A DNA stretch of 64,000 nt from Escherichia coli. GTDB lineage: Bacteria > Pseudomonadota > Gammaproteobacteria > Enterobacterales > Enterobacteriaceae. Shown here piece by piece: positions 33,154 through 54,664 of this stretch. Where the stretch lies: NCBI RefSeq assembly GCF_044324875.1, contig NZ_CP172186.1, one strand, 5' to 3'. Position numbers and translations under genes: made by a program. The stretch's first letter is position 1, and every line of letters starts with the position of its first letter. The notes beneath the pieces are model-generated. The model was not told where the DNA came from. It saw only the letters and a program-made list of their open reading frames with translations, and made no database searches.

Positions 33154-34080
33154 ATGCCAAACTGGTGCTCAAATCGTATGTATTTTTCTGGTGAACCGGC
33201 ACAGATTGCTGAGATTAAACGACTGGCCAGCGGTGCAGTCACACCGTTTTATCGCCGCGCCACAAATGAAGGTATTCAGCTGTTTCTGGCCGGAAGTGCC
33301 GGACTTCTGCAGACCACTGAAGATGTGCGGTTTGAACCATGTCCCGGACTGACGGCTGCCGGACGTGGCGTTGTATCGCCGGAGAATATCGCGTTCACCC
33401 GCTGGCTGACATACCTGCAGGACGGTGTACTGCTGGATGAGCAAAACTGCCTGATGCTGCATGAACTCTGGCTGCAGAGCGGTACTGGACAGCGTCGCTG
33501 GGAAGGATTACCGGACGATGTCAGGGATACCATCACCGCACTTTTCACCGCAAAAAGAGGTGACTGGTGTGGCTTCTGGAGTAACGAAGATGTATCGGTG
33601 TGGTGGAACCGTCTGTGTGACAACGTACTGCCGGAAAAAACCATGCCGTTTGACCTGCTGACGGTTCTGCCCACCCGCCTGGATGTTGAAGTGAATGGCT
33701 TTAACGGTGGTGTTCTGAACGGTGTTCCTTCTGCATATCACTGGTATACGGAACGGTATGGCGTGAAGTGGCCTGTGGGGTATGAGGTGAATATCAGTAA
33801 TCAGGGAGACAACTTCATTAAGGTGGATTTCGACACGCCGTGGTGTCAGCCGGAAAGCGACGTTATTGCAGAATTAAGCCGCCGTTTCAGCTGCACGCTG
33901 GAGCACTGGTATGCCGAACAGGGCTGTGATTTCTGTGGCTGGCAGTTGTATGAGCGCGGAGAGCTCGTTGATGTGCTGTGGGGGGAACTGGAATGGTCTT
34001 CCCCGACAGATGACGATGAGCTGCCGGAAGTCACCGGACCTGCGTGGATAGTCGACAATGTGGCGCATTATGGCGGATGA
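33154..34080 (+). CDS. Conserved leading-region protein of unknown function
   Basis: ATG 33154 with GAGGAG RBS; 308 aa; Cys/Trp-rich. Confidence 0.6.
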   Translation: MPNWCSNRMYFSGEPAQIAEIKRLASGAVTPFYRRATNEGIQLFLAGSAGLLQTTEDVRFEPCPGLTAAGRGVVSPENIAFTRWLTYLQDGVLLDEQNCLMLHELWLQSGTGQRRWEGLPDDVRDTITALFTAKRGDWCGFWSNEDVSVWWNRLCDNVLPEKTMPFDLLTVLPTRLDVEVNGFNGGVLNGVPSAYHWYTERYGVKWPVGYEVNISNQGDNFIKVDFDTPWCQPESDVIAELSRRFSCTLEHWYAEQGCDFCGWQLYERGELVDVLWGELEWSSPTDDDELPEVTGPAWIVDNVAHYGG

Positions 34081-34462
34081 AGTATGACGGAGACGGGCGG
34101 GCAACTGCCCGTTTCTTTTCCGGTAAAGGATGTCGCCATGCTCCTCTTTTTACTGCGCCGGCTGACGCGGCGCGGCATAAACGCTGCCTGTGGTCAGTGT
34201 CCCGCGTCCGGTGGGCACGGGACGGGCGCTTTTACCGCTCCCGGCTGGCGTCGGTGACAGTGTACGCCAGCCTGTCGCCCTTTTCTGATGAACGCCCTTC
34301 AAGCCGCTTTCGCGGCATAACCTTGCCGTCAAACAGACGACGGCTGCGGTATTCCACGGTCGGCCTGACCCGTTACCGGACGCGGTGAACAGCCCACAGG
34401 CAGCGGGGAACGGGCACCACAGGGGTGCCCTCCCGGTGCCCCCTGTAAGAGAAGGAGCTGTT

Positions 34463-35146
34463 ATGTCCCGTTTTATCCTGGGTGACTGCGTGCGTGTTAT
34501 GGCCACGATTCCTGATAACGCCATTGATTTCATATTAACCGATCCGCCATATCTCGTCGGTTTCCGTGACCGTTCCGGGCGCACCATTGCCGGTGACGTT
34601 AATGATGACTGGCTGCAACCGGCCTGTAATGAGATGTACCGCGTACTCAAAAAAGACGCGCTGATGGTCAGCTTCTACGGCTGGCACCGTATTGACCGCT
34701 TTATGGCGGCCTGGAAACGCGCCGGATTCAGCGTGGTTGGCCACCTGGTCTTCACCAAAAACTACACATCCAAATCTGCGTATGTCGCGTACCGCCACGA
34801 ATGCGCTTACATCCTGGCAAAGGGCAGTCCGGCCCGGCCCCGTAACCCGCTGCCGGATGTGCTGGGCTGGAAATATTCGGGCAACCGCCATCACCCGACG
34901 GAAAAGCCCGTTACCAGCCTGCAACCGCTGATTGAGAGCTTCACACATCCGAACGCGATTGTGCTGGATCCGTTTGCAGGCAGCGGTTCAACCTGCGTGG
35001 CCGCCCTTCAGTCCGGACGCCGGTATATCGGTATCGAGCTGCTTGAACAGTATCACCGTGCCGGACAGCAACGACTGGCCGCCGTGCAACGGGCCATGCA
35101 GCAGGGGGCCGCGAATGATAACTGGTTTATGCCGGAGGCTGCGTAA
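34463..35146 (+). CDS. Orphan DNA N6-adenine/N4-cytosine methyltransferase (beta class)
   Basis: DPPY motif (ILTDPPYL) preceding FAGSGS AdoMet motif; no adjacent restriction gene. Confidence 0.8.
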   Translation: MSRFILGDCVRVMATIPDNAIDFILTDPPYLVGFRDRSGRTIAGDVNDDWLQPACNEMYRVLKKDALMVSFYGWHRIDRFMAAWKRAGFSVVGHLVFTKNYTSKSAYVAYRHECAYILAKGSPARPRNPLPDVLGWKYSGNRHHPTEKPVTSLQPLIESFTHPNAIVLDPFAGSGSTCVAALQSGRRYIGIELLEQYHRAGQQRLAAVQRAMQQGAANDNWFMPEAA

Positions 35147-35368
35147 ATGAACTATGCCGGACACGAAAAACTTCGCGCCGACGTGGCGGAGGTGGCCAAT
35201 GCCATGTGCGACCTGCGTACAACCATGAATGAGATGGAGCGGCGGTACAGCTTTAATGCTGACACCCTGCCGGAACGTCTGGTGCGTCAGACGTTGTTTC
35301 GCGCAAACCGCCTCCTGATGGAGGCATATACCGAAATTCTGGAACTGGATTCCTGCTTCAAAGATTGA
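35147..35368 (+). CDS. Hypothetical protein
   Basis: 73 aa, translationally coupled to the methyltransferase gene. Confidence 0.5.
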   Translation: MNYAGHEKLRADVAEVANAMCDLRTTMNEMERRYSFNADTLPERLVRQTLFRANRLLMEAYTEILELDSCFKD

Positions 35369-35381
35369 GAAGGAGACGAGA

Positions 35382-35816
35382 ATGTACGGAACATGCGAAA
35401 CGCTATGCCGGGCGCTGGCAGCAAAGTATCCGGGAGATACGCCGCTGATGCTGGTTATCTGGTCCCCGGAAGAAATTCAGGCCCTCGCTGACGGAATGGA
35501 TATTTCCCTGTCCGATCATGAAATCAGGACTGTCCTGGCGCGGCTGGCGGACATCCCGGAAGACCAGCGGACTGAGTCCGGTATTTCTTCCGGCGTGGCG
35601 ATGGAGATTATCAGCAACGTGAGCGAAAACCGCCAGGTGACCGTCCCGGCTGAACTGCTGGCGTCCCTGATTCAGACCGCCGAACAGGCACTGTGGAAAC
35701 GTGAATGGGCCGCCCGTGATTACGGCCTCGCCGTCCCGGAATGCGTCACCCGCCGTCAGGCGGTGGTTAATCAGGCCCGCATCCTGCTGAAAAACAACCC
35801 ACACGAAAACGACTGA
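35382..35816 (+). CDS. Hypothetical leading-region protein (paralog of 37518-37937)
   Basis: 144 aa; shares MY.T....I..VL......P......V......D...A.D.......E....RL pattern with the ORF at 37518. Confidence 0.6.
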   Translation: MYGTCETLCRALAAKYPGDTPLMLVIWSPEEIQALADGMDISLSDHEIRTVLARLADIPEDQRTESGISSGVAMEIISNVSENRQVTVPAELLASLIQTAEQALWKREWAARDYGLAVPECVTRRQAVVNQARILLKNNPHEND

Positions 35817-35860
35817 TGTTATCGCCGCCTTCGGGCGGCGATTCAGGGAGACCATGAATC

Positions 35861-36631
35861 ATGAACAAAACGCTGAATGCACTGGTTTGTCACCACGCCC
35901 GTAACCTGCTGCTGGCGCAGGGCTGGCCGGAAGAGACGGATGTTGACCAGCGTAACCCGAAGTATCCGGGCTGGATCAGCATTTATGTTCTGCTGGATGC
36001 GCCCCGGCTGGCGACGTTACTTATCAACCGTCACGGCGGCGTACTGCCGCCGCTCCTGGCCTCCGCCATTCACAAACTGACCGGAACCGGGGCGGAAGTT
36101 GTACTGTCCGGCAGTCAGTGGCAGTCGCTGCCGGTACTTCCGGCAGACGGAACGCAGGTGTCTTTCCCGTATGCCGGAGAATGGCTGACCGAAGACGAAA
36201 TCAGGGCAGTTCTTGATGCAGTGCGCGATGCGGTACGCAGTGTCAGTTGCCGGGTGACAGAAGATGCGCGGCGTATCAGGGCGGCGCTGACCACAACCGG
36301 TCAGACGTTGCTGACCCGCCAGACGCGGCGCTTTCGCCTGGTTGTGAAGGAAAGCGATCACCCCTGCTGGCTCGATGAAGACGACGAAAACCTGCCCGTG
36401 GTGCTCGATGCCATCCTGAACCGGGGCGCTCGTTTTTCTTCGGTGGAAATGTATCTGGTCAGTGAGTGTGTGGAGCATATCCTGTCCAGTGGGCTGGCCT
36501 GCGATGTGCTGCGTATACCGGATGAACCGCCCCGCCGGTGGTTTGACCGTGGTGTTCTGCGGGAGGTGGTCCGGGAAGCCCGGGCCGAAATCCGCAGCAT
36601 GGCGGATGCCCTGGCAAAAATCCGGAAATGA
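35861..36631 (+). CDS. Hypothetical leading-region protein
   Basis: 256 aa ORF with coding-like composition. Confidence 0.55.
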
Positions 36632-36690: not shown

Positions 36691-37030
36691 ATGTCGCCGC
36701 AGGCTCCGCTTTACTCGGCCATGCGGGGCATGGCCTTGTGGGTTTTCAGTTATGTGGCCTCAGCGTCGTGTGCGGGCTGTGCCGTGCCTCCATCGTAGCC
36801 GGGCTTCTGCGGGCGGGTTGCAAGGTAAGGTGAACCGCTGCGGTCACCCGGTCCCTCCTTCCCGTCTGCCGTGATTTTCCGGTCGTTCACCCGCTCAGAT
36901 TTCGCGGTCTCACCCTCCAACTCCCGCCAGCCGTGTGCGTCAGGCTGCGGCTTCCCTTGCGCCCTTGCAACCCTGCAGGCCCGGCAAAGATGGAGGCACG
37001 GCACCGCCCGGTGTCGCGGAATATGTGAAC
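36691..37030 (+). repeat. GC-rich direct repeat family A, copy 1 (candidate single-strand promoter/ssi element upstream of klcA)
   Basis: About 340 bp, roughly 95 percent identical to 48927-49265; dense inverted repeats. Confidence 0.6.
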
Positions 37031-37045: not shown

Positions 37046-37471
37046 ATGCAGTATGCGAAACCTGTCACCCTGAACGTTGAAGAGTGCGACCGCCTTTCTT
37101 TTCTGCCTTACCTGTTTGGCAACGATTTTCTGTATGCCGAGGCGTATGTGTACGCGCTGGCGCAAAAAATGATGCCGGAATATCAGGGAGGCTTCTGGCA
37201 TTTCATCCGCCTGCCGGACGGTGGCGGTTACATGATGCCGGATGGCGACCGTTTTCATCTGGTCAACGGTGAAAACTGGTTTGACCGCACTGTGAGTGCT
37301 GATGCCGCAGGCATCATTGTTACGTCTCTTGTGATTAACCGCCAGTTGTGGCTGTACCACGACAGCGGGGATGCGGGACTGACACACCTGTACCGGATGC
37401 GTGATGCGCAGTTGTGGCGTCACATCGAATTTCACCCCGAATGCAACGCGATTTACGCGGCACTGGACTGA
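37046..37471 (+). CDS. klcA: KlcA/ArdB-family antirestriction protein
   Basis: MQYAKPVTLNVEECDRLSFLPYLFGNDFLYAEAYVY...; ATG 37046 with GGAGGA RBS. Confidence 0.8.
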   Translation: MQYAKPVTLNVEECDRLSFLPYLFGNDFLYAEAYVYALAQKMMPEYQGGFWHFIRLPDGGGYMMPDGDRFHLVNGENWFDRTVSADAAGIIVTSLVINRQLWLYHDSGDAGLTHLYRMRDAQLWRHIEFHPECNAIYAALD

Positions 37472-37517: not shown

Positions 37518-37937
37518 ATGTACTGTACTGTTAAAGAAATTATCCGCGAAGTGCTGAATACAGACGTGCCGGACAGTGAATGTGTTTTTGCCGTGGTGCT
37601 GACCCGCGGGGATGTGCGCCACATAGCCCGGGACTGGAACCTGTCAGACGATGAGCTGGAAACCGTCATGCAGCGGCTGGACGATGCTTTTGTATATGGC
37701 GCATGTGACAGAGTTGTTTCCGATATTGTCAATGAACTGATGGAGGAAAAGCGCGTAAACCGTCTTGTAACAGTTCCTGCGGTGCTGCTGGAAAAAGTGA
37801 TGGTGATGGCTGGTAGTGAAATTTATCGCCTCCATGCTGTAGGGAGCGAGAACGGGGGCGACGGTGACGCATTTGTCAGGGAAGAACGTGAGATTATGCG
37901 GGTAATGCGTCAGGCGCTGGACGGGGAGAACGGGTAA
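37518..37937 (+). CDS. Hypothetical leading-region protein (paralog of 35382-35816)
   Basis: 139 aa. Confidence 0.6.
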   Translation: MYCTVKEIIREVLNTDVPDSECVFAVVLTRGDVRHIARDWNLSDDELETVMQRLDDAFVYGACDRVVSDIVNELMEEKRVNRLVTVPAVLLEKVMVMAGSEIYRLHAVGSENGGDGDAFVREEREIMRVMRQALDGENG

Positions 37938-38128: not shown

Positions 38129-38299
38129 TACAGGGGCAGGCGGTGGAGGCCGCCTGTCAGCCCGCGCGAAAACCCCTGGCAGGCTGGCGCCTGCCGGAAG
38201 GGATGCGGGCCACGCTGGCGCGTCGCCCGTTACCCTTCCTGTTGGTGACAGGCGTTGTTTCAGGAAGTACCTGTTACAGACCTGTCGTTAAAGAACCTT

Positions 38300-38870
38300 C
38301 TTACACATGCGCCCCTTCGGCTCCCGGCTGCCTGGCGGCATCCGGTCGTCAGGCCCGACTCCGACAGGCAGCTGCTGGCGCACCCGCCAGTCTCCGCCGA
38401 ACCCGCTGGCGCGGTTTCGGGCTGTCGCTACGGTCCGATGCGTGAAAACCCGGGCTTGCAGCGACCGTTCCGGTCGCGCCGCCTCTGTCGCGCCGTGACC
38501 TGCGCTCCCTGCACACCTGACGGTGTGTGAGGAAACTGCGCCTGATGGCGCAGCAGTCCTCCCTCCTGCCGCCACCTCTGCGGCCTGTTTCCCGCTGTGG
38601 ACTTTCCGGGGGGCAGACGTAACCCCCTCCCGTTCCATCTGTCCAGGGTGAGATGCACCGGCCACAAAATTTTTAGCCATGAACCCGGCAAAAAATTTTG
38701 CGTCCGCCCCCGGACAGCTGCCCCGTGAGGCGGTAAACGGGCCCCCATCGGAAAGGTCCACTGCGGGGAGAAACCCCTGTGAAGTGGACGGCAGGAGGAG
38801 CTTTCGCTCCTCTGAAGGGGCACATGAACGTCCCGTCGCCGGTATCCGGTTTATCTCACATCTTTCAGTC
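38300..38870 (+). repeat. GC-rich direct repeat family B, copy 1 (upstream of ssb)
   Basis: Shares long near-identical blocks with 49960-50500 and 53020-53370 (e.g. CTTCGGCTCCCGGCTGCCTGGCGGCATCCGGTCGTC, GGAAAGGTCCACTGCGGGGAGAAACCCC). Confidence 0.6.
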
Positions 38871-38881
38871 AGGAGGTTCTT

Positions 38882-38920
38882 ATGAGTGCACGTGGTATCA
38901 ACAAGGTCATCCTCGTCGGG
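38882..38920 (+). CDS. ssb: ssb exon 1 (codons 1-13: MSARGINKVILVG)
   Basis: ATG 38882 preceded by AGGAGG; coding sequence interrupted by intron beginning GTGCG at 38921. Confidence 0.75.
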
Positions 38921-41581
38921 GTGCGCCGTTGAAGCGCGGTGTTTTATGGAGTGTTGCCTGAAAAGCAACATGGCTTAGTGGTATAGCCATTGCATACTGT
39001 GGTTAGCCTTGCTTGGTAACAGGCTCGGAGATCCTGAAAAGGAGAGGTGAACATAGCATCCACAGAAAAGGGTGGTGAATATGGAAATCGTTATAAGTAT
39101 CACCATTCAATGCAAGATGTATATGGATAAACTGGGTTTGTTGAAGTCGAGATCTATGTGGGAAACAGGAAACCAATAACGCAGAACGATTGAAGCGTTA
39201 TTCCCGTACTAGCACAAGAAATCCGTCCGACGTTGATTGTGACCACTCTAACGGGCCAGCTATTGATGAAATAGTTAAACGATCGAAAGACATCCTAAGT
39301 ACATCGCATCTCCACACCGTGAAACTACGGGACTACCTAAACTGGATTTATACCCAGCATGGTAGCGGAGTCTCCATAGTACTCAAGGTCGGCCTGTAAT
39401 GGGTTCCGGCAGTCCGCATTATACGGAAGCAGCAAAGGTATAAATCAACCGGAAGGAAGATGAAAGCCTCACAGTGCTGCGGGGAAGGGAGACAGTTGTT
39501 AGATACATCAATCTCTAAGAGGAGGGTTAGCCAATGCTGCCTGATGAACTTGAGAAAAGATTAGATGGAATTGAGGATGCTTCAAAAAAAGGGTATCCAG
39601 TACGTAATCTATACAAAATTGCGTGTGAGCCCGGACTGTGGCTGCAAGCCTACGTGAATATACGGGCCAATGCAGGTGCACTGACTCAAGGTGTATCAAC
39701 AGATACCATTGATGGCTTTTCTATCGAAAGAGCAGAGAAGCTGGCAAAAACATTGCGGAGTAGAGAATACGTAGCGAAACCTGTACGCAGAGTTCAGATC
39801 CCAAAAAAGGACGGAAAAACCAGACCGCTGGGGATTCCAGGTGGAGACGATAAACTGGCGCAAGAAGTAGCAAGAATTATTCTGGAAAGGGTTTATGAAC
39901 CAGTATTCTCTGAACACTCTCATGGATTCAGACCAAAACGTTCGTGTGAAACTGCGCTCAGATCTATTCGTCCAGTCTGGAACGGAGTTAAATGGATCGT
40001 GGATGTTGATATCAAAGGTTTCTTTGACAATATCCCCCACAAACTATTGCTGAATACACTGGCAGAGAAAATTAAGGATAAGAATTTCCTGAAATTAATC
40101 GAACAGTGGCTGAAGGCAGGATATGTGGACAATTGGAAATACCATCGCTCATATTCTGGCACGCCACAAGGTGGGATAATTTCTCCCTTACTGGCAAATA
40201 TATACCTCGACAAACTGGACCGTTTTGTAGAACAGAATTTAATTCCTGCATATACAAGCGGTACAAAACGAAGAGCGAATCCAGATATGAACAGGCTGGC
40301 CCATAAGATTCATAAACTACGAAAGAAAGTAGACGGTATGGCAACTGATTCTGAATCAGAAAAAGAAGCCATAAAGAAAGAAATTGAACGACTGCTTGAA
40401 GAAAAACGTTCTATACCATCTCAGGTCATGAACGATCCAAACTTCAGGCGTATGTACTATGTTCGATATGCTGATGACTTCGTAATCGGTGTCATCGGCT
40501 CGAAGAAAGATGCTGAACATATATCAAGACAGGTCAGAAACTTTATTACTACTTCACTGGGATTGGAAGTTAATGAAGCAAAGACCAGGATCCGCCATAT
40601 CTCAGAAGGAGTTAATTTTTTAGGCTATGAAATCAGACAGGCAGATGCAAAGAAATTGCTGAAGCAGAAAATGCAAGGGCGGCACGCTCTCCGGAGATCC
40701 ACCACAGGAATTGTGCAGCTCTTCGTTCCTGACAATATAGCCGCTAAATTTTGTCACCAAAAGAAATATGGCTGTTATGAGAATGTGAAGGCTGTACATC
40801 GTTCAAGTCTACAAAATCTCAGTGAAGCTGAAATTGTTCTGACTTTCAACGCGGAAATGCGCGGATTGGCGAACTACTACAGTCTGGCGCTGGACATGAA
40901 ATATAAATTATCAAAATTATATTTCATATGGCAAATAAGCCTTTTTAAGACCCTGGCGAATAAACGACGTAGTTCAGTGAATAAAGTCGCCAAATCGCTA
41001 CGGCAAAATAATGGAGATCTGGCTATTACCGTTCAGGCCAAAAATGGATCCCGAAAGATTGAGGTTTTCAAACTCAAACATGTCAATCGCAACCGAACAA
41101 CGATTGTCGATACGGAACCGAGAACCGCACATATCACAACCCGCACAACAGAGATCATGCGTCGATTAGGGGCAAGGATCTGCGAGTATTGTGCGAAGAC
41201 TGGGCGCTGCGAAGTACATCATGTCAGAAAGCTAAAAGACCTGAAGAAAGGTCGTAAGGCCGGATATAAACCCAGCTTGTGGCAACTAATGATGATCGCA
41301 CGCCGCCGGAAAACGATGATTTTGTGCGCAAGTTGCCACGACAAGTTACATAGCGGAAAACTACCCGATTTGAGACAGGAAAAGGGAAGAATACTCCTGC
41401 AACCACCTGTCTCAAGCGGGGATTCTGCTAAATGAGTTTATCCCCAATAAGCTAGCAATGGAGAGCCGTATGCACTGAAAGGTGCACGTACGGTTCGGAG
41501 GGGGGGTAACGGTGATCTAACTCAAGATAAGCAGGACATATTCGCCATTTATCTTGAAAGACCACACGTACCCTACCCTAC
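38921..41581 (+). mobile_element. Group II intron (2661 bp) inserted in ssb
   Basis: 5' GTGCG, 3' ...AC; domain V-like hairpin GAGCCGTATGCACTGAAAGGTGCACGTACGGTTC at about 41462; encodes RT/maturase/HNH protein; flanking exons splice in frame. Confidence 0.85.
39534..41435 (+). CDS. Group II intron-encoded protein (reverse transcriptase - maturase - HNH endonuclease)
   Basis: 633 aa; RT motifs incl. YADDFVIGV; C-terminal HNH CEYC...HHV...CASCHDKLH. Confidence 0.9.
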   Translation: MLPDELEKRLDGIEDASKKGYPVRNLYKIACEPGLWLQAYVNIRANAGALTQGVSTDTIDGFSIERAEKLAKTLRSREYVAKPVRRVQIPKKDGKTRPLGIPGGDDKLAQEVARIILERVYEPVFSEHSHGFRPKRSCETALRSIRPVWNGVKWIVDVDIKGFFDNIPHKLLLNTLAEKIKDKNFLKLIEQWLKAGYVDNWKYHRSYSGTPQGGIISPLLANIYLDKLDRFVEQNLIPAYTSGTKRRANPDMNRLAHKIHKLRKKVDGMATDSESEKEAIKKEIERLLEEKRSIPSQVMNDPNFRRMYYVRYADDFVIGVIGSKKDAEHISRQVRNFITTSLGLEVNEAKTRIRHISEGVNFLGYEIRQADAKKLLKQKMQGRHALRRSTTGIVQLFVPDNIAAKFCHQKKYGCYENVKAVHRSSLQNLSEAEIVLTFNAEMRGLANYYSLALDMKYKLSKLYFIWQISLFKTLANKRRSSVNKVAKSLRQNNGDLAITVQAKNGSRKIEVFKLKHVNRNRTTIVDTEPRTAHITTRTTEIMRRLGARICEYCAKTGRCEVHHVRKLKDLKKGRKAGYKPSLWQLMMIARRRKTMILCASCHDKLHSGKLPDLRQEKGRILLQPPVSSGDSAK

Positions 41582-42064
41582 CGTCTGGGCAATGATCCGG
41601 AAGTCTGTTACATCCCCAACGGGGGCGCAGTGGCAAACCTGCAGGTCGCCACGTCAGAAAGCTGGCGCGACAAACAGACGGGGGAGATGCGGGAGCAGAC
41701 GGAATGGCACCGCGTGGTGCTGTTCGGCAAGCTCGCGGAAGTGGCTGGTGAATATCTGCGCAAGGGCGCGCAGGTCTACATCGAGGGGCAACTCCGTACC
41801 CGTAGCTGGGAGGATAACGGTATCACCCGTTACGTCACTGAAATTCTTGTTAAGACCACGGGCACCATGCAGATGCTGGGGAGTGCACCACAGCAGAACG
41901 CTCAGGCGCAACCGAAGCCTCAGCAGAATGGGCAGCCACAGAGTGCTGACGCGACGAAAAAAGGTGGCGCGAAAACGAAAGGCCGTGGACGTAAGGCCGC
42001 GCAGCCGGAGCCTCAGCAGCCGTCTGAACCCGCGTATGACTTCGATGACGACATTCCGTTCTAA
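41582..42064 (+). CDS. ssb: ssb exon 2 (plasmid single-stranded DNA-binding protein, codons 14-173)
   Basis: [35 protein letters not shown]...DDDIPF (acidic C-terminal tail). Confidence 0.85.
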
Positions 42065-46637: not shown

Positions 46638-46653
46638 CAGAAGGAACAACAGT

Positions 46654-47409: not shown

Positions 47410-47508
47410 AAAGCGGTAGAAAAAGTTAAGTTCCCGGTTGATCGAATGGATGCGAATCGCTGATCGGACTTCGATGCCAATCCGTGATCGAATAGAGCGG
47501 AATACGCA

Positions 47509-48225: not shown

Positions 48226-48818
48226 TGAAATCAGACGAAAAATACCAGGTTCCCGCGTGGATGCGACCTCTGTTGCCGTTGCTCTGCAACACCGGGGAGA
48301 ACGATCCGGAAGAACTGCTGAATGATACAGAAACCACTGCCAGTGCGAATGTTGTCCGTTATGTGCTGATAGTTGCTGTGCGGTCGCAGGTTGATCTGCT
48401 GCAGCTTCTGTACAGGAAAGGGCTGTTGCGCACAGAGATACCAGGTGGCTTTTCACCGGAAGAAGCGCAGGAACTCCTGGATAATCTGGTGCGCAGCCAT
48501 ATCAGCAGGGCGCTGTCGGGTGAGCGAATGGCAGCCCGTGACAGGAATGCCGATCTGGCCTGGATTCGACAGCAACTGGTCGATGCCGCCTGGTTTGTCC
48601 GTGCCACACTGGAAGCGCATGGGATGAGCGTCGGAAATGAGAGTCCCCCTGCTCAGCCGGAGACAATGCCGGACATACAGACACGGGAACTGGTGATGTT
48701 GATCAAGCGACTGGCATCATCGCTGAAAGCGGTGAAACCGGACAGTTGTGTGGTGCGTGAAGCGCAGGACTGGCTGCGCGACAGAAAACTTGTGAGCATC
48801 ACGGATGTTCTTCGGTGA
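48222..48818 (+). CDS. Hypothetical leading-region protein
   Basis: 198 aa from ATG 48222. Confidence 0.55.
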   Translation: MMKSDEKYQVPAWMRPLLPLLCNTGENDPEELLNDTETTASANVVRYVLIVAVRSQVDLLQLLYRKGLLRTEIPGGFSPEEAQELLDNLVRSHISRALSGERMAARDRNADLAWIRQQLVDAAWFVRATLEAHGMSVGNESPPAQPETMPDIQTRELVMLIKRLASSLKAVKPDSCVVREAQDWLRDRKLVSITDVLR

Positions 48819-48926: not shown

Positions 48927-49265
48927 ACGTCGCCGCCGGCTCCGCTTTTACCCGGCCATGCGGGGCATGGCCTTGTGGGTTTTCAGCTCTGTGGCCTCAG
49001 CGTCGTGTGCGGGCTGTGCCGTGCCTCCATCGTAGCCGGGCTTCTGCGGGCGGGATGCAAGGTAAGATGAACCGCTGCGGTCACCCGGTCCCTCCTTCCC
49101 GTCTGCCGTGATTTTCCGGTCGTTCACCCGCTCAGATTTCGCGGTCTCACCCTCCAACTCCCGTCAGCCGTGCGCGTCGGGCTGCGGCTTTCCTTGCGCC
49201 CTTGCATCCCTGCAGGCCCGGCAAAGATGGAGGCACGGCACCGCCCGGTGTCGCAGAACATGTGA
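48927..49265 (+). repeat. GC-rich direct repeat family A, copy 2 (upstream of ardA)
   Basis: Near-identical to 36691-37030. Confidence 0.6.
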
Positions 49266-49282: not shown

Positions 49283-49783
49283 ATGTCTGTTGTTGCACCT
49301 GCTGTATACGTTGGAACCTGGCACAAATATAACTGCGGAAGCATCGCCGGCCGCTGGTTTGACCTGACCACGTTTGATGATGAACGCGATTTTTTCGCCG
49401 CCTGCCGTGCCCTTCACCAGGATGAAACCGATCCGGAACTGATGTTTCAGGATTATGAGGGTTTCCCGGGGAATATGGCCTCTGAATGTCATATCAACTG
49501 GGCCTGGGTTGAAGGCTTCCGCCGGGCACGGGATGAAGGCTGCGAAGAGGCTTATCGTCTCTGGGTGGATGATACCGGTGAGACGGATTTTGACAGCTTC
49601 CGCGATGCCTGGTGGGGCGAGGCTGACAGTGAGGAGGCTTTTGCGGTTGAGTTCGTCAGTGATACCGGCCTGCTGGCTGACGTGCCGGAGACGGTGGCGC
49701 TCTATTTTGACTATGAGGCGTATGCGCGGGATTTATTCCTGGACTCCTTCACCTTTATTGACGGTCATGTGTTCCGTCGGTGA
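49283..49783 (+). CDS. ardA: ArdA antirestriction protein (DNA mimic)
   Basis: MSVVAPAVYVGTWHKYNCGSIAGRWFDL...; 166 aa, very acidic; GGAGGA RBS. Confidence 0.85.
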   Translation: MSVVAPAVYVGTWHKYNCGSIAGRWFDLTTFDDERDFFAACRALHQDETDPELMFQDYEGFPGNMASECHINWAWVEGFRRARDEGCEEAYRLWVDDTGETDFDSFRDAWWGEADSEEAFAVEFVSDTGLLADVPETVALYFDYEAYARDLFLDSFTFIDGHVFRR

Positions 49784-50500: not shown

Positions 50501-50511
50501 GAGACGTTTTC

Positions 50512-50946
50512 ATGACAGTCAGCAGCACGATTTCCGTTTTTTGCCGAGACGGGGTGTTCCGTACCGTTTACTGCCACCTGCACGGTGAGCCGACCTGGAA
50601 CGGTCGCATCCTGCATACCCACTATGCCACCGGTCAGCTGGCCGAAGCCCTGGTTGAACACGGAGATATCCGTTGCCTCGGTCCCCGTTGCGACAAACCC
50701 GCCGGGCATACGCTTCAGAACCCGGTGGACGGTGTGACGGCTTATTACGGACGTGACAGTGGTTTCCGGATGGACAGTGAGGCGCGTGAGTACCGTTCTT
50801 TCAGGGAGGCTATTGCCACTGAAAGCACTGAAGAGGTGCGCTTCCATTATGTGTTCATCGACGGCTACTGGAAGGTGATGTACCGCACGCCGGAAGGCTG
50901 GAAGATGAAAGCGCTCGCGCTGGCACTGCGTCGCTGTCCGGAATGA
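50512..50946 (+). CDS. Hypothetical leading-region protein
   Basis: 144 aa from ATG 50512 (MTVSSTISVF...), AGGAGA RBS; the tracked 333-aa ORF upstream part lies in repeat B. Confidence 0.6.
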   Translation: MTVSSTISVFCRDGVFRTVYCHLHGEPTWNGRILHTHYATGQLAEALVEHGDIRCLGPRCDKPAGHTLQNPVDGVTAYYGRDSGFRMDSEAREYRSFREAIATESTEEVRFHYVFIDGYWKVMYRTPEGWKMKALALALRRCPE

Positions 50947-51368: not shown

Positions 51369-52247
51369 GTGAGTAAGAAGAAAAACACCACAACGCCCAC
51401 GCCGCATGATGCCGCGTTCCGGTCGTTCCTGGCGAATCCCGACGTTGCCAGGGATTTTCTGGAGTTGCATCTTCCTGCGGAGTACCGGCAGTTGTGCGAC
51501 CTGTCCACCCTGAAGCTGGAACCCGCCACCTTTGTTGAGCCGGACCTGCATCAGTACGCCAGCGATATCCTCTGGAGTGTGAAAACCACCGGGGGTGAAG
51601 ACGGCTATGTTTATACGCTCATCGAGCACCAGAGCACCGAAAATCTGTACATGCCTTTTCGCATGTTACGTTACAGTGTGGCGGCGATGCAGAGACATCT
51701 GGAGCAGCACAAAACGTTGCCACTGGTCATTCCGGTGCTGTTCTATCACGGTGAGCGCAGCCCGTACCCGTACAGCATGAACTGGCTGGACTGTTTTGAG
51801 AATCCGGCACTTGCGGCTAAAATATACACAAAGCCGTTTCCGCTGGTTGATATCACTGTCGTTGATGACAATGAAATCATGAACCATCGCCGGATGGCCG
51901 CACTGACGCTGCTGATGAAGCATATCCGCCATCGTGACATGATGGAGCTGCTGGACAAACTCCCGCAGGTCATGGTGGAAATTTCAGACGAGCAGGTGCG
52001 TGTTCTGATTCATTACATCGTTAACGCAGGGGACACTGTATCACCGGAATTTATGCGGGCGCTGGCCGAGCGCCTGCCGCAGCATGAGGATAAACTGATG
52101 ACAATCGCAGAACGTCTTGAGCAGAAAGGTGCGCTTGAAAAAGCCCTGGCCATTGCGCGTCAGCTTCAGAAAATGGGGATGACACCTGAGCAGATTAAGC
52201 AGGCCACCGGACTTTCCGAAGCTGAACTGAAAAAAGTCATTCACTGA
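51369..52247 (+). CDS. Rpn/YhgA-like recombination-promoting nuclease family protein
   Basis: GTG 51369 after AGGAGG; N-terminal HDAAFRSFLANPDVARDFL...; about 292 aa. Confidence 0.65.
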   Translation: MSKKKNTTTPTPHDAAFRSFLANPDVARDFLELHLPAEYRQLCDLSTLKLEPATFVEPDLHQYASDILWSVKTTGGEDGYVYTLIEHQSTENLYMPFRMLRYSVAAMQRHLEQHKTLPLVIPVLFYHGERSPYPYSMNWLDCFENPALAAKIYTKPFPLVDITVVDDNEIMNHRRMAALTLLMKHIRHRDMMELLDKLPQVMVEISDEQVRVLIHYIVNAGDTVSPEFMRALAERLPQHEDKLMTIAERLEQKGALEKALAIARQLQKMGMTPEQIKQATGLSEAELKKVIH

Positions 52248-52308: not shown

Positions 52309-52527
52309 ATGACGATTGCAGAACGTCTTATACAGAAAGGTTTCGACGAGGGTTTTAAAGAAGGTTTTAAACAAGGTTTTAAACAAGGTTTTAAACAAGG
52401 AGCTCTTGAAGTGGCGCGGGAAATAGCCTGCCGGCTTCGGGATATAGGCTGGTCGCCGGAACGGATTCAGGAGGTCACGGGACTTTCCGGTGAAGAACTG
52501 AAAAAGCTGTTTCCTGATGAGCAGTAG
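52309..52527 (+). CDS. Small ORF resembling the C-terminal tail of the Rpn-like protein, with GFK(E/Q)GFKQ tandem repeats
   Basis: MTIAERLIQKG...GLSGEELKK parallels ...MTIAERLEQKG...GLSEAELKK of the upstream gene. Confidence 0.4.
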   Translation: MTIAERLIQKGFDEGFKEGFKQGFKQGFKQGALEVAREIACRLRDIGWSPERIQEVTGLSGEELKKLFPDEQ

Positions 52528-52557: not shown

Positions 52558-52809
52558 TCACACATCCTCTGCCGTTTCCCCCAGTTCATTTTCCAGTCGC
52601 CTGATGATATCTGCCTTACGCATCCCCTGCATGTGAGGCAGCAGGTCACGGACTGAAAGTGCCTGGGTGGTCCTCCAGACGGTGACGTCCACCTGTTCCG
52701 CATTTTCCCAGGCGTGCCATGTTCTCTGCGTCACGCCAAATTCTCTGGCCGCTTTTTCGCGTGACCAGAGCATGCTTTTTCGCCAGATTCGCAGTTCCCA
52801 TCCGGTCAT
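52558..52809 (-). CDS. HTH (XRE-like) DNA-binding protein
   Basis: 83 aa; AAREFGVTQRTWHAWE HTH-like segment; twin palindromes upstream. Confidence 0.5.
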   Translation of the reverse strand: MTGWELRIWRKSMLWSREKAAREFGVTQRTWHAWENAEQVDVTVWRTTQALSVRDLLPHMQGMRKADIIRRLENELGETAEDV

Positions 52810-52823
52810 AAAACACCTTTGAA

Positions 52824-52909
52824 AAAGTGAAAAAACTTCACTTTATTTTATCATCACAATTGCCAAATCAGCGCGATAAATAAGTGTAAAAAAGTGAAGA
52901 AATTTCACT
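52824..52909. promoter_or_regulatory. Two palindromic operator-like sites AAGTGAA-N5-TTCACTT upstream of the HTH gene
   Basis: 52824-52842 AAGTGAAAAAACTTCACTT and 52891-52909 AAGTGAAGAAATTTCACTT. Confidence 0.5.
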
Positions 52910-53019
52910 TTTTTTGGTTGTAAATGTCGTGCGGTTTTCTCTGTTTTCACCTGTGCGGGAGTGGTGTGCCAGTGACCACCACATGCCATTGTTGTGCCGT
53001 CGTTTTTCTTCAGTCGCGC

Positions 53020-53370
53020 CGGATGCGGCGCTCCCTGCACACCTTACGGTGTGTAAGGCCACTGCGCCTGATGGCGCAGCTGCCTCTGCCTGTCTGCCGC
53101 CGCACTGCGGCCTGTTCTCCGCAGACGGACTTTCCGGGGGTACATACACGACCACATCCCGTTTCAGTCGTCCAGGGGAGAGATGTACCAGCCACAAAAC
53201 TTTTTGCCGCAGGCGTCAAAAACTTTTGCGTCTGCCCCCGGACAACTGCCCCGTGACGTGGTGAGCGTCCCCCGTCGGAAAGGTCCACTGCGGGGAAATC
53301 CCCGAAGACCCGGACGGCAGAAGGAGCTTCGCTCCTCCGGGAAATGACCTGGCTGACCCGGCAGTCGTGA
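53020..53370 (+). repeat. GC-rich direct repeat family B, copy 3 (partial)
   Basis: See 38300-38870. Confidence 0.55.
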
Positions 53371-53388
53371 CGATGAGGAGACAATGTG

Positions 53389-54237
53389 ATGAATCAGACT
53401 TTACCCACTGCTGACCTGAATACTGCCGGCACGACAGATGTTATTCCGTCTGTGGCTATCGACCGCATCATCGCGCAGCGTAACGAAGGTATTGCACTGT
53501 TCATGCAGGCGATGGAATGCCTGGCGACAGCGCGCAGGATTCTGCTCGATGCTTCCGGTGACATTTTTCTCTACGGGTTTGAAGACTGCGTGACTGACTC
53601 CGTTCGATGCATGGATAAACCGGAAGAAGCGAAAAGGAATATCACCCGTCTTGCCGACCGGAAAATCTGGGACCGCCTGATGACAGATACGGGCATGTAC
53701 ACCTTCATGAGTTCATGCCAGCGTGATGAGTGGAACAGCCAGCTGATGAGCGACACCTGTCCTGAAATCACCCTGGACAATGTACTGGCAACATTCCGCC
53801 ATCTTAATGCCAGCAAGATGCAGACATTTGAACAGGGACTGATTGATGTCTACCGGAAATTGTCATGGGATTACAGAACCAATAATCCCTGCCGTCTGGG
53901 CAAGAAAATCATTATTGAAAACCTGCTGTACCGCTGGAGTAACGGGCGTGTGACGCTGGACTGCAGCAGACGGGAGGCACTGGATGACCTGGTACGTCCG
54001 TTTTATCTGCTGGAGGGGCGCAACGTTCCTGACTTCAGGAACAGCATCGGGGCGCAGTATGGTGAATTTCTCAGGAACGGCGACAATGTCGGTAAGTTGT
54101 TAGAAGGGGAATATTTTACGGTGCGTGGCTACCAGAAAGGGACCGTACACATTGTCTTTAAGCGTTCTGACCTTGTTGAAAAACTGAATGATATTATTGC
54201 ACGGCATTATCCTGGTGCATTGCCGCCACGAGTCTGA
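53389..54237 (+). CDS. Hypothetical leading-region protein
   Basis: 282 aa from ATG 53389, GAGGAG RBS. Confidence 0.6.
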   Translation: MNQTLPTADLNTAGTTDVIPSVAIDRIIAQRNEGIALFMQAMECLATARRILLDASGDIFLYGFEDCVTDSVRCMDKPEEAKRNITRLADRKIWDRLMTDTGMYTFMSSCQRDEWNSQLMSDTCPEITLDNVLATFRHLNASKMQTFEQGLIDVYRKLSWDYRTNNPCRLGKKIIIENLLYRWSNGRVTLDCSRREALDDLVRPFYLLEGRNVPDFRNSIGAQYGEFLRNGDNVGKLLEGEYFTVRGYQKGTVHIVFKRSDLVEKLNDIIARHYPGALPPRV

Positions 54238-54322
54238 TTAAACAGAAAAGCCCTGGTATTTATGCCGGGGCTTTTTTTTCTGTAATCATCATAATCTCAG
54301 AACACGATGTGACATTGTCACA

Positions 54323-54664
54323 TCAATTGTTGTTCATATCGATGCCATCTTTCCTGCCTGAATCTGTCTTTTTAGGTGCTGTTTTAGAGGAAGAACGGCG
54401 GGATGTTTTTTTCGATTCTGCTTCCCGAATAATGTCACGAAGTGCCTTCTCTCCTACTTCATACCCTGCATTTTTGAGCGTGTCACGAATATCTGCCAGT
54501 GTATAACCCTTTGTCCTTACCAGGACAATAATGTCATCACGAATGGCATCAAGAAAATCACGCAATGTTTTCCGTTGAGCGGTGAGATCTGGCAATTCCG
54601 ATAAAGCAGCTTTTGCCAGCTGGATGTCATCATCTGAGTAAAATTTTTTAGAAGCCATTGGCAC
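54323..54664 (-). CDS. Hypothetical protein (basic C-terminus)
   Basis: 113 aa ORF. Confidence 0.5.
   Translation of the reverse strand: MPMASKKFYSDDDIQLAKAALSELPDLTAQRKTLRDFLDAIRDDIIVLVRTKGYTLADIRDTLKNAGYEVGEKALRDIIREAESKKTSRRSSSKTAPKKTDSGRKDGIDMNNN

What the first reader, a model, noticed from the sequence alone, without database searches (positions are those of the whole stretch)
33154..54664. Leading-region island with many uncharacterised genes next to known anti-restriction and anti-SOS functions
An orphan beta-class methyltransferase, klcA/ardB-like, ardA, ssb, ParB-like nuclease, psiB/psiA and an Rpn-like nuclease are interspersed with at least ten ORFs of unknown function (33154-34080, 35147-35368, 35382-35816, 35861-36631, 37518-37937, 42120-42353, 48222-48818, 50512-50946, 51038-51304, 53389-54237). 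Two are paralogs of each other (35382 and 37518). Genes in this position are expressed first in the recipient, so these are prime candidates for uncharacterised anti-defence functions (anti-RM, anti-CRISPR, anti-abortive infection).
Basis: inference. Interest (0 to 1): 0.5.

Follow-up and report, generated by a model that had tools for sequence, protein, structure and literature searches.

The report
Textbook plasmid leading region, already catalogued
This is the standard "first-to-enter" segment of an IncI-type conjugative plasmid: its ten unknown genes are real and conserved, but they, their early-expression promoters and the anti-defence idea are already published, so nothing new is shown here.

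Summary
All ten ORFs exist at the stated coordinates and are under purifying selection (pN/pS 0-0.48). 35382 and 37518 are true paralogs (BLASTP E=3e-8).

The region is the leading region of an IncK2/Z-type (IncI-complex, MOBP) plasmid. It matches pESBL gene for gene (80-100% aa identity), and matches F from the methylase to psiA. The nick motif ATCCTG|T lies on the minus strand at 54800/54799. The transferred strand is therefore the template for 20 of 22 genes.

Six structured intergenic regions correspond to the six 5'RACE-mapped ssDNA promoters of pESBL and define six early operons.

Their table already lists DUF905, DUF1380, YchA/YfdA, DUF4942, DUF1281 and YdaB/YgdA as top uncharacterised leading-region families.

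Anti-defence roles remain untested, and several results point elsewhere:
- The "ParB-like nuclease" is a 94% ortholog of HerB, a host reprogrammer.
- Rpn plus its small downstream ORF is a toxin-antitoxin phage-defence module.
- The pESBL orthologs were all dispensable in TnSeq.

New details found here:
- ssb is split by a group II intron.
- psiA is hit by an IS21 element.
- DUF4942 is not a methyltransferase fold.
- "PndC" is a misnomer for a large family with no solved structural relative.

Verdict: already known, low interest.

The parts
54799..54850 (-). oriT core. Inverted repeat 54845-54835 / 54818-54808, then ACATCCTG|TCCCG. The predicted nick is between 54800 and 54799, and the 5' end of the transferred strand runs towards lower coordinates.
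   Evidence: Sequence read. The region is 92% identical to pESBL over the stretch that contains its TnSeq-defined oriT. The nick consensus YATCCTG|Y is established knowledge for MOBP relaxases, recalled from memory.
54323..54664 (-). yggA (labelled 'MobC' in RefSeq). It is on the opposite strand, so it cannot be transcribed from the entering single strand.
   Evidence: 98% aa identity to pESBL Hp23; pN/pS 0.12; no NCBIfam hit.
53389..54237 (+). ygfB, a stand-alone DUF4942 protein. It is the first + strand gene to enter the recipient.
52850..53374 (-). Class 1 (ssi/Frpo-type) ssDNA promoter hairpin upstream of ygfB.
   Evidence: Minus-strand DNA fold -130 kcal/mol for this domain; region z=-8.9. 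99.5% identical to pESBL. Shares repeat families D4/D5 with the other two class 1 copies.
52558..52809 (-). ygeA, a small HTH-type protein on the opposite strand.
   Evidence: 100% aa identity to pESBL Hp21; RefSeq annotation 'helix-turn-helix transcriptional regulator'.
52309..52527 (+). rpnSs: a free-standing copy of the Rpn C-terminal antitoxin domain, with five four-residue repeats.
   Evidence: 43% identity to residues 244-290 of the neighbouring Rpn, E=6e-12. Repeat number is 3, 4 or 5 in related plasmids. Found in 1,340 of 5,426 complete E. coli genomes, almost only on plasmids.
51369..52247 (+). rpn (ygdB): Rpn-family PD-(D/E)XK nuclease toxin.
   Evidence: TIGR01784, 169 bits against cutoff 52. 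The RpnL/RpnS system is described in PMC10400941.
51038..51304 (+). ygdA, 88 aa, basic, function unknown.
   Evidence: pN/pS 0.00; 98% identity to pESBL Hp17; no family hit.
50512..50946 (+). ygcA, 144 aa, mislabelled 'PndC'. Member of a very large uncharacterised phage/plasmid family.
49811..50486 (-). Class 1 (ssi/Frpo-type) ssDNA promoter hairpin upstream of ygcA.
   Evidence: 676-nt domain, -228 kcal/mol; region z=-14.2. 94% identical to pESBL. Direct repeats with 38313-38838.
49283..49783 (+). ardA (anti-restriction DNA mimic).
   Evidence: PF07275, 4.5e-28; pI 4.1, net charge -24.
49010..49247 (-). Class 2 ssDNA promoter hairpin upstream of ardA.
   Evidence: 300-nt repeat, 97% identical to 36710-37009. 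238-nt hairpin, -72 kcal/mol. 90% identical to pESBL.
48222..48818 (+). ygaA, 198 aa, function unknown. Last gene of the ssb operon.
   Evidence: 96% identity to pESBL Hp15; pN/pS 0.26. Only the C-terminal ~50 aa hit PHROGs of unknown function.
47515..48225 (+). psiA, the part downstream of the IS. Its first nine bases are at 44861-44869.
   Evidence: NF010258, 343 bits; matches profile positions 19-238 of 239. Reconstruction.
44870..47508 (+). IS21-family insertion (istA, istB) with 6-bp target duplication AGCGCA.
   Evidence: Absent from the 99.8%-identical pLH50-c-A. NF033546 and NF038214 both above cutoff. Junctions read.
44430..44864 (+). psiB (SOS inhibitor).
   Evidence: NF010255, 265 bits against cutoff 100.
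42417..44375 (+). yfhA, ortholog of F YfjB/HerB (ParB-like CTP-binding host reprogrammer).
   Evidence: 94.3% identity over all 652 aa to F. TIGR00180, 61 bits against cutoff 58. Function from PMC13370423.
42120..42353 (+). DUF905 protein (F YfjA / YkfF family).
   Evidence: PF06006, 5.6e-31. PDB 2HJJ, 3.9e-19. 91% identity to F.
41582..42064 (+). ssb exon 2.
   Evidence: Joining 38882-38920 to 41582-42064 gives a 173-aa SSB, which scores 367 bits on NF010292.
38921..41581 (+). Group II intron with its reverse transcriptase/maturase (39534-41435), inserted after codon 13 of ssb.
   Evidence: Rfam RF00029 at 41461-41581, 67 bits. TIGR04416, 311 bits. Precise insertion relative to L002. GTGCG...CCTAC ends.
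38882..38920 (+). ssb exon 1 (13 codons).
38291..38881 (-). Class 1 (ssi/Frpo-type) ssDNA promoter hairpin upstream of ssb.
   Evidence: 591-nt domain, -174 kcal/mol; region z=-12.6. 91% identical to pESBL. A 68-73 nt core is ~95% identical to sequences at two places in the F leading region.
   Evidence: pN/pS 0.06-0.13; 97% identity to pESBL and F.
37518..37937 (+). yfeC, a divergent DUF1380 paralog, acidic.
   Evidence: BLASTP E=3e-8 against 35382. phrog_9024, 2e-4. Pfam only i-E 0.088. pI 4.5.
37046..37471 (+). klcA/ardB-type antirestriction gene.
   Evidence: PF03230, 5e-25; 97-98% identity to pESBL and F.
36773..37010 (-). Class 2 ssDNA promoter hairpin upstream of klcA.
   Evidence: 238-nt hairpin, -76 kcal/mol. 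Repeat of the ardA copy. 88% identical to pESBL and F.
35861..36631 (+). yfdA (YchA family), 256 aa, function unknown.
   Evidence: phrog_8919, 1e-138. No Pfam, PDB or phage match. pN/pS 0.25-0.32.
35382..35816 (+). yfcB, DUF1380.
   Evidence: PF07128, 1.1e-50.
35147..35368 (+). yfcA, 73 aa, function unknown.
   Evidence: phrog_4830, 2.6e-34; pN/pS 0.19-0.25.
34463..35146 (+). yfbB, an M.EcoGIX-type orphan beta-class N6-adenine methyltransferase.
   Evidence: 95.6% aa identity to the pESBL methylase; NF010253, 489 bits. Function from PMC7736820 and PMC4288162.
34140..34458 (-). Class 3 ssDNA promoter hairpin upstream of the methylase. A RefSeq 'hypothetical protein' is annotated over it.
   Evidence: 319-nt domain, -97 kcal/mol. 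98% identical to pESBL and 95% to F. The overlapping ORF has pN/pS 0.87-1.56.
33154..34080 (+). yfaB, DUF1281/Api92-like, acidic. It lies beyond the last mapped early promoter.
   Evidence: PF06924, 3e-48, and PF18406, 3e-14. PDB 2IJR, 8e-50. pI 4.4, net charge -24.

Best explanation
The interval is the canonical leading (establishment) region of an IncI-complex conjugative plasmid.

Proposed sequence of events:
1. NikB nicks the minus strand at ATCCTG|T (54800/54799).
2. That strand enters the recipient 5' end first, so 54.8 kb down to 33 kb arrives first.
3. As single-stranded DNA, six long imperfect hairpins fold into double-strand-like promoters for host RNA polymerase. They lie upstream of the methylase, klcA, ssb, ardA, ygcA and ygfB.
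4. Because the entering strand is the template for the + strand genes, six operons are transcribed in a burst. The burst ends when the complementary strand is made.

Known products and their roles:
- The M.EcoGIX-type enzyme methylates the incoming strand.
- ArdA and KlcA block restriction.
- SSB, PsiB and PsiA blunt the SOS response.
- The HerB ortholog reprograms host transcription.
- Rpn/RpnSs is a toxin-antitoxin nuclease module.

The ten unknown ORFs are conserved, co-transcribed passengers of these operons, i.e. early establishment genes of unknown biochemical role. My best guesses, all inference:
- The two DUF1380 paralogs, each lying one or two genes downstream of an anti-restriction gene, and the DUF4942 protein act in DNA-modification or anti-restriction.
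- The others could equally be host-manipulation or inter-element competition factors.

Shown here: gene content, orientation, orthology, folding, and selection. Shown by others on 80-99% orthologs: early induction and start sites. Inferred: function of the ten ORFs.
For: - oriT nick motif and inverted repeat lie on the minus strand, next to a MobA/NikA-like gene and a MOBP relaxase.
- 20 of 22 genes are on the + strand.
- The region is collinear gene for gene with pESBL at 80-100% aa identity, and with F from the methylase to psiA at 64-98%.
- Six intergenic regions fold far better than shuffles on the minus strand (z -4.9 to -14.2; hairpin domains of 238-676 nt). They form two repeat families and are 88-99% identical to their pESBL counterparts.
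- In pESBL those six promoters were mapped by 5'RACE and drive up to ~500-fold induction 15 min after mating (PMC12672017).
- M.EcoGIX protection from restriction depends on oriT orientation (PMC7736820).
- All ten ORFs are under purifying selection.
- Homologs of ygcA lie next to ArdC genes and a Mom gene in other elements.
- DUF4942 is fused to an adenine-MTase domain in phages.
Against: - I could not locate convincing -35/-10 hexamers in the hairpins with simple consensus scans.
- The z-scores of the class 2 and class 3 regions (about -5 to -6) are matched by one coding control and by the region upstream of DUF1281. For those regions the promoter assignment rests on orthology, not on my folding.
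- In this particular plasmid the ssb operon carries a 2.7-kb intron and a 2.6-kb IS. Early expression of ssb needs splicing, and expression of psiA and ygaA is probably impaired.
- No evidence ties any of the ten ORFs to a specific defence system, and all their pESBL orthologs were dispensable in TnSeq.
Confidence: 0.88

Rival explanations
1. Most of the ten ORFs are not anti-defence proteins. Instead they are establishment or host-manipulation factors acting on recipient physiology (transcription, metabolism, replication priming, strand conversion), as HerB does.
For: - The only recently characterised 'unknown' of this module, YfjB/HerB, reprograms host transcription and lowers acquisition cost rather than blocking immunity. 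Its ortholog here is 94% identical.
- DUF905 sits between ssb and herB in the same operon in F, pESBL and this window.
- There is essentially no similarity to known anti-CRISPR or anti-restriction proteins in Samuel et al.'s sequence and structure searches for the family rows read.
Against: Known anti-restriction and anti-SOS genes make up much of the same operons. Homologs of ygcA and DUF4942 occur beside or fused to anti-restriction or modification functions in unrelated elements.
Confidence: 0.4
2. Some of the ORFs belong to defence, addiction or inter-element competition modules carried by the plasmid, rather than to counter-defence.
For: - Rpn and the downstream RpnSs match the RpnL/RpnS/RpnSs toxin-antitoxin architecture. 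A plasmid-borne member of that family protects against T-even phages.
- ygcA and ygdA lie in the same promoter block, directly upstream of rpn.
- Samuel et al. report toxin-antitoxin genes as over-represented in leading regions.
Against: PADLOC finds no defence-family match for any of the ten ORFs, apart from a marginal 16-bit hit. ygcA-family genes occur widely without Rpn neighbours.
Confidence: 0.15
3. The ORFs are spurious or decaying reading frames in GC-rich intergenic DNA.
For: Several annotated 'hypothetical proteins' in this region are of that kind (34077-34388, 38143-38445, 49785-50528 minus strand).
Against: All ten listed ORFs have pN/pS 0.00-0.48 without stops or frameshifts. Five match Pfam families at E<=1e-30 (the second DUF1380 copy only weakly), and two have solved homologs. 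Nine of the ten hit PHROG families. ygcA gives a pLDDT 97 model.
Confidence: 0.02

Closest known systems
Leading region of IncI1 plasmid pESBL-EA11 (and R64/ColIb-P9), with ssDNA promoters ssi1-3 plus class 2 and class 3
   Same: Same genes in the same order and orientation from DUF1281 to nikB, at 80-100% aa identity. All six promoter regions are conserved at 88-99%.
   Different: - This plasmid types as IncK2/Z, and its NikA is only 66% identical.
- It lacks the impCAB (umuDC-like) boundary genes and the extra 129-aa ORF upstream of rpn.
- It carries a group II intron in ssb and an IS21 element in psiA.
- Its RpnL has 0 four-residue repeats where pESBL has 3, and its RpnSs has 5 where pESBL has 4.
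F plasmid leading region (Frpo1/Frpo2; yfeA-yfjA-yfjB/herB-psiB-psiA module)
   Same: The methylase to psiA block is shared at 64-98% aa identity, including both DUF1380 genes, yfdA, yffA, DUF905 and herB. Class 2 and class 3 promoter regions are 88-95% identical.
   Different: F has no ardA, ygaA, ygcA, ygdA, rpn, rpnSs or DUF4942 in the stretch of its leading region that I compared. It uses a MOBF relaxase and a different oriT, and its DUF1281 copy is truncated.
Anti-defence islands of plasmid leading regions (Samuel et al., Nature 2024)
   Same: The region fits the definition: clustered anti-restriction, anti-SOS, orphan MTase, SSB and toxin-antitoxin genes next to oriT, on the T-strand, with Frpo-like promoters. 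Their top-100 family table lists the same unknown families.
   Different: The umuCD-type terminal boundary they often observe is absent here. The island ends at parM/stb-like stability genes.
RpnL/RpnS/RpnSs toxin-antitoxin phage-defence systems (Zhong et al., PNAS 2023)
   Same: A full-length Rpn nuclease, a downstream free-standing copy of its C-terminal domain, and hypervariable four-residue repeats in both.
   Different: The free-standing copy is only 43% identical to the neighbouring Rpn tail and has a different repeat count (5 against 0). By the published repeat-matching rule it may therefore not neutralise its neighbour. It sits in an ssDNA-promoter-driven early operon, after a terminator-like hairpin.

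Membership tests
Plasmid leading region / anti-defence island | Lies next to oriT, on the side transferred first. | tested here: met
   ATCCTG|T nick motif 8 nt after an 11-bp inverted repeat on the minus strand at 54800/54799. nikA/nikB lie on the far side. The stretch aligns to the pESBL segment that contains its TnSeq-defined oriT.
Plasmid leading region / anti-defence island | Genes are oriented so that the transferred strand is the template. | tested here: met
   20 of 22 genes (excluding the intron and the IS) are on the + strand. Only ygeA and yggA are opposite.
Plasmid leading region / anti-defence island | Contains hallmark early genes (ssb, psiB/psiA, ardA, klcA, orphan MTase). | tested here: met
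   Pfam and NCBIfam matches are above curated cutoffs where cutoffs exist. In this copy ssb is split by an intron and psiA is disrupted.
Plasmid leading region / anti-defence island | Has single-stranded-DNA promoters (Frpo/ssi hairpins) upstream of the operons. | tested here: met
   Three class 1 regions fold at z -8.9 to -14.2 with 525-676 nt hairpin domains. The class 2 pair is a 300-nt repeat. All six are 88-99% identical to the mapped pESBL promoters. I could not assign the hexamers myself.
Plasmid leading region / anti-defence island | Shows zygotic induction in the recipient. | not testable with these tools
   Shown only for the pESBL and F orthologs (PMC12672017).
Plasmid leading region / anti-defence island | Has a umuCD-like operon as distal boundary (frequent, not obligatory). 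| tested here: not met
   Present in L001 and pESBL. Absent here and in pLH50-c-A, where parM/stability genes adjoin DUF1281.
M.EcoGIX family of ssDNA-specific orphan methyltransferases | Beta-class N6_N4 MTase with close sequence identity to M.EcoGIX. | tested here: met
   95.6% aa identity over 227 aa to the pESBL methylase. PF01555 and NF010253 matches. DPPY comes before FAGSGS in the sequence.
M.EcoGIX family of ssDNA-specific orphan methyltransferases | Single-strand-specific m6A methylation at SAY, with protection from restriction on entry. | not testable with these tools
   Reported for M.EcoGIX.
RpnL/RpnS toxin-antitoxin | Rpn PD-(D/E)XK nuclease with a C-terminal three-helix domain carrying variable four-residue repeats, optionally with a free-standing RpnSs. 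| tested here: met
   TIGR01784 above cutoff. The small ORF is homologous to the Rpn tail. Repeat counts are 0/1/3 in RpnL and 3/4/5 in RpnSs across five plasmids.
RpnL/RpnS toxin-antitoxin | Internal translation start producing RpnS; toxicity blocked by the cognate RpnS. | not tested
   Residue M244 of Rpn aligns with M1 of the small ORF, but I did no ribosome-binding-site analysis and there are no expression data.
HerB (F YfjB) ParB-like host reprogrammer | Full-length similarity to HerB, including the ParB/CTP-binding N-terminal domain. | tested here: met
   94.3% identity over 652 of 652 aa. TIGR00180, 61 bits against cutoff 58.45.
DUF1380 (PF07128) | Match to the family profile. | tested here: met
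   35382-35816 matches at E=1.1e-50. 37518-37937 matches only at i-E 0.088, but its relationship is supported by BLASTP E=3e-8 and phrog_9024 E=2e-4.
Hok/Sok-type post-segregational killing locus ('PndC' label on 50512-50946) | Hok-family toxin ORF with overlapping mok/pndC reading frame and Sok antisense RNA. | tested here: not met
   No hok/sok RNA family reaches the gathering score anywhere in the 64-kb window. The protein is a globular 144-aa domain with 1,836 related clusters in phages, plasmids and archaea. In pESBL the Hok gene lies elsewhere.
SAM-dependent DNA methyltransferase (label often given to DUF4942 proteins) | Rossmann-like fold with motif I (FxGxG) and motif IV ((D/N)PP(Y/F)). 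| tested here: not met
Known anti-CRISPR / anti-restriction protein families (for the ten unknown ORFs) | Sequence or structural similarity to a characterised anti-defence protein. | tested here: not met
   No named hit in NCBIfam, PHROGs, Pfam or PDB. Samuel et al.'s DIAMOND and Foldseek columns against anti-CRISPR and anti-restriction sets read 'NA' for the rows read (YdaB/YdfB/YgdA, DUF905, AreA/YffA, DUF1380, YfcA), with 10 ArdA hits among 3,556 YchA/YfdA members; the DUF4942 and DUF1281 rows were seen only in excerpt. Absence of similarity does not exclude the function.

The most novel reading that the evidence does not exclude
ygcA (50512-50946) is the first gene behind a class 1 ssDNA promoter. 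It may be the founding member of a new enzyme-type counter-defence or host-takeover family.

Evidence that does not exclude this:
- It belongs to about 1,800 sequence clusters spread over plasmids, phages, bacteria and archaea.
- It gives a near-perfect structure prediction with no solved structural relative.
- It keeps a constellation of invariant or near-invariant polar residues (Y20, H22, H66, Y79, R81, D82, Y113) that looks like an active or ligand-binding site.
- Its homologs lie next to ArdC and Mom anti-restriction genes.

A second, smaller possibility: the free-standing RpnSs, whose repeat count does not match its neighbour, is a decoy antitoxin aimed at Rpn nucleases of the recipient.
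Probability: 0.12. Interest if true: 0.6.

Novelty: already known. Interest (0 to 1): 0.2.

Why it matters
Leading regions decide whether a resistance plasmid survives its first minutes in a new host. The uncharacterised genes in them are legitimate targets for finding new immune-evasion or host-takeover mechanisms.

That case has already been made and is being pursued:
- Samuel et al. 2024 published a systematic catalogue.
- Wen et al. 2025 published the transcriptome and start sites for the near-identical pESBL region.
- The 2026 HerB preprint characterised the ParB-like gene.

This window adds no new gene family and no new architecture. Its practical value is limited to:
- corrected annotations: hairpin 'genes', 'PndC', DUF4942 'methyltransferase', 'ParB-like nuclease';
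- a natural variant in which the ssb operon is interrupted twice.

Tried and rejected
- Consensus scans for -35/-10 hexamers, on the + strand and on both hairpin arms of the minus strand, gave no convincing promoter in any of the six regions. Promoter assignment therefore rests on identity to the mapped pESBL promoters. The supplement with the pESBL promoter sequences is not held.
- Folding z-scores alone do not separate class 2 and class 3 promoters from controls. A ParB coding segment gave z=-5.2.
- Rfam finds no hok/sok or other RNA family in the interval apart from the intron.
- NCBIfam and PADLOC gave nothing for the ten ORFs, PHROGs gave only unnamed families, and Pfam gave only DUF families.
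- PDB sequence searches gave only the two structural-genomics entries 2IJR and 2HJJ. Profile searches with the ygcA and DUF4942 alignments found nothing.
- The word-indexed homolog searches for ygcA and yfdA returned only close relatives (67% identity or more for ygcA, 84% or more for yfdA) and were of little use. yfdA has no phage homolog by tblastn.
- C-terminal extensions of longer ygcA homologs are variable (a WYL_2 domain and low-complexity tails) and give no functional hint.
- The idea that the 'PndC' ORF marks a post-segregational killing locus was rejected.
- The idea that DUF4942 is itself a methyltransferase was rejected.

Full report
**What is there.** The interval 33154-54664 carries 22 conserved genes. 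Twenty are on the + strand and run towards a MobA/NikA-like gene (54891) and a MOBP relaxase (55235). A megablast against PLSDB hit the 5,000-record ceiling at 90-99% identity. The best full-length relatives are IncI-gamma/K1 and IncK2/Z, MOBP, MPF_I plasmids of E. coli. One of them, pLH50-c-A, is 99.8-100% identical apart from two insertions.

**Direction of transfer.** Between yggA and nikA, the minus strand reads GTAATCGTATA...TATACGATTAC ACATCCTG|TCCCG. That is an inverted repeat followed, eight bases later, by the IncP/IncI-type nick motif (the consensus is recalled from the literature on MOBP relaxases). The stretch is 92% identical to the pESBL segment that contains its TnSeq-defined oriT. 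The minus strand is therefore the transferred strand. Its 5' end starts at about 54799, and it is the template for all + strand genes.

**Check of the observation.**
- All ten listed ORFs are real. Against two relatives at 82-99% nucleotide identity they show pN/pS of 0.00-0.48 with no stops or frameshifts.
- ORFs that merely overlie the GC-rich intergenic regions show pN/pS of 0.46-1.56, plus stops and indels. Some of these are annotated as hypothetical proteins in RefSeq.
- Known genes are confirmed by Pfam and NCBIfam: a beta-class N6_N4 methylase, KlcA/ArdB, ArdA, SSB, PsiB, PsiA, a ParB-domain protein and an Rpn nuclease.
- The paralogy of 35382 and 37518 is real but distant: 29% identity, E=3e-8.
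- Pfam places four of the ten in DUF families at strong E-values: DUF1281 plus DUF1281_C, DUF1380, DUF905 and DUF4942. The 37518 paralog matches DUF1380 only weakly. The other five have no Pfam family.
- DUF1281 and DUF905 have structural-genomics structures without known function (2IJR, 2HJJ).

- ssb is split after codon 13 by a 2,661-bp group II intron (38921-41581). The evidence is an Rfam domain V/VI match, a TIGR04416 maturase and GTGCG...CCTAC ends. Joining the exons restores a 173-aa SSB that scores 367 bits on the plasmid SSB model.
- psiA is hit in codons 2-3 by a 2,639-bp IS21-family element with a 6-bp target duplication.
- Two more small conserved genes exist: yffA (37937-38128) and an Rpn-tail-like ORF (52309-52527).

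**Anatomy and mechanism.** The intergenic regions are not spacers.
- A 300-nt repeat (97% identical) precedes both klcA and ardA.
- A second repeat family occurs three times, before ssb, ygcA and DUF4942.
- Folded as minus-strand DNA, the three copies of the second family form 525-676 nt hairpin domains of -130 to -228 kcal/mol (z -8.9 to -14.2).
- The klcA and ardA copies form 238-nt hairpins, and the region before the methylase forms a 319-nt one.
- The whole interval is collinear gene for gene with pESBL-EA11 at 80-100% protein identity. The six structured regions are 88-99% identical to their pESBL counterparts.

For pESBL, Wen et al. (NAR 2025) showed by donor-elimination RNA-seq and 5'RACE that exactly these six regions are ssDNA promoters:
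- class 1 = ssi1-3/Frpo-like;
- class 2 = upstream of klcA and ardA;
- class 3 = upstream of M.EcoGIX.

They drive up to ~500-fold induction 15 min after mating and fade as the plasmid becomes double-stranded. By orthology the window has six early operons:
1. methylase-yfcA-yfcB-yfdA;
2. klcA-yfeC-yffA;
3. ssb-DUF905-herB-psiB-psiA-ygaA;
4. ardA;
5. ygcA-ygdA-rpn(-rpnSs);
6. ygfB (DUF4942).

DUF1281 lies beyond the last mapped promoter. A conserved 165-nt hairpin sits just upstream of it, but I cannot say whether it is a promoter. My own attempts to find -35/-10 hexamers failed.

**What is known about the named genes.**
- The methylase is 95.6% identical to M.EcoGIX. M.EcoGIX is a single-strand-specific SAY m6A enzyme whose protection of pESBL from restriction depends on oriT orientation.
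- The 'ParB-like nuclease' is 94.3% identical over its full length to F YfjB. A 2026 preprint renames YfjB as HerB and shows it to be a CTP-binding, chromosome-associated reprogrammer of host transcription.
- Rpn and the small downstream ORF fit the RpnL/RpnS/RpnSs toxin-antitoxin phage-defence architecture of Zhong et al. 2023. The diagnostic four-residue repeats vary among five related plasmids: 0, 1 or 3 in RpnL and 3, 4 or 5 in RpnSs. This window has one more repeat than its 99.8%-identical relative.

**The ten unknowns.** Their Supplementary Table 1 lists the following among the largest uncharacterised families enriched in leading regions: YdaB/YdfB/YgdA (rank 1), DUF905 (2), DUF1380 (7), YchA/YfdA (10), DUF4942 (24) and DUF1281 (27). 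In the rows I read, their anti-CRISPR and anti-restriction sequence and structure searches read 'NA', apart from 10 ArdA hits among 3,556 YchA/YfdA members; the DUF4942 and DUF1281 rows I saw only in excerpt. I assigned the window's ORFs to those families by name and domain, not by direct sequence comparison. In pESBL TnSeq, the orthologs Hp8-Hp22 were all classed as non-essential for transfer to a laboratory recipient. No paper in the searched library assigns a function to any of them.

I added two structure predictions.

**Verdict.** The positional and early-expression logic is supported through experimentally studied orthologs. The anti-defence assignment of the ten ORFs is neither supported nor excluded. 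Characterised neighbours show that leading-region genes can equally be host reprogrammers or defence/toxin modules. Region, gene families, promoters and hypothesis are all in the literature. Novelty: already known. Interest: low. The residual novel possibility is that ygcA, or the mismatched RpnSs, has a new counter-defence activity.

Noticed in passing
window 38921-41581 (ssb exons 38882-38920 and 41582-42064): A group II intron with its maturase sits inside ssb after codon 13, in the same orientation. Splicing would restore a full 173-aa SSB. Many related IncI/K plasmids have ltrA annotated in this stretch; the same insertion junction was confirmed in L001 and L003, and L001 has two tandem copies. 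Early SSB production from the ssDNA promoter would depend on splicing.
   Followed up: partly
window 44870-47508: An IS21-family element (istA/istB, TSD AGCGCA) is inserted in codons 2-3 of psiA, five bases after the psiB stop. It probably inactivates psiA and is polar on ygaA. It is absent from the 99.8%-identical pLH50-c-A.
   Followed up: yes
window 52309-52527 and 51369-52247: The free-standing Rpn-tail ORF has five GF(D/K)(E/Q) repeats, whereas related plasmids have 3-4. The neighbouring Rpn has 0 repeats here, 1 in pHU493 and 3 in pESBL. A terminator-like hairpin (about 52255-52280) separates the two genes. The small ORF is on plasmids in about a quarter of complete E. coli genomes.
   Followed up: partly
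window 34077-34388, 38143-38445, 49785-50528 (minus strand): Reading frames annotated as hypothetical proteins in RefSeq relatives lie on the ssDNA-promoter hairpins. They evolve like non-coding DNA: pN/pS 0.8-1.6, with stops or indels in two of the three (38143-38445 and 49785-50528).
   Followed up: yes
window 32959-33123: A 165-nt minus-strand hairpin (-49.7 kcal/mol) lies immediately upstream of DUF1281. The surrounding upstream region is 97% identical in pESBL and 95% in F. It is a possible seventh ssDNA promoter that is not among the six published ones.
   Followed up: partly
window 15152-16443 and 58853-60144 (also 1953-3076): Two direct copies (99.8% identical) of a 1,292-bp IS3-family element with ALIL frameshift pseudoknots bracket about 42 kb. 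That span includes the whole leading region, oriT and nikAB. A third, 92%-identical copy lies inverted near 2-3 kb.
   Followed up: no
window 10080-11310 and 61063-62293: A 1.2-kb inverted repeat (96.6% identical), probably another insertion sequence pair.
   Followed up: no
L014 2498-4057 (Marinomonas phage P12026 gp32); L015 2222-3853 (Pseudomonas phage phiPSA1 gp22): These phage 'DNA methyltransferases' are fusions of an N-terminal DUF4942 domain with a small C-terminal NPPF/NPPY adenine-methylase domain.
   Followed up: partly
window 31106-32497: ParM-like and stability genes directly adjoin the leading region. The impCAB/umuDC-like boundary operon present in pESBL and pRHB07-C14_3 is missing here.
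   Followed up: partly
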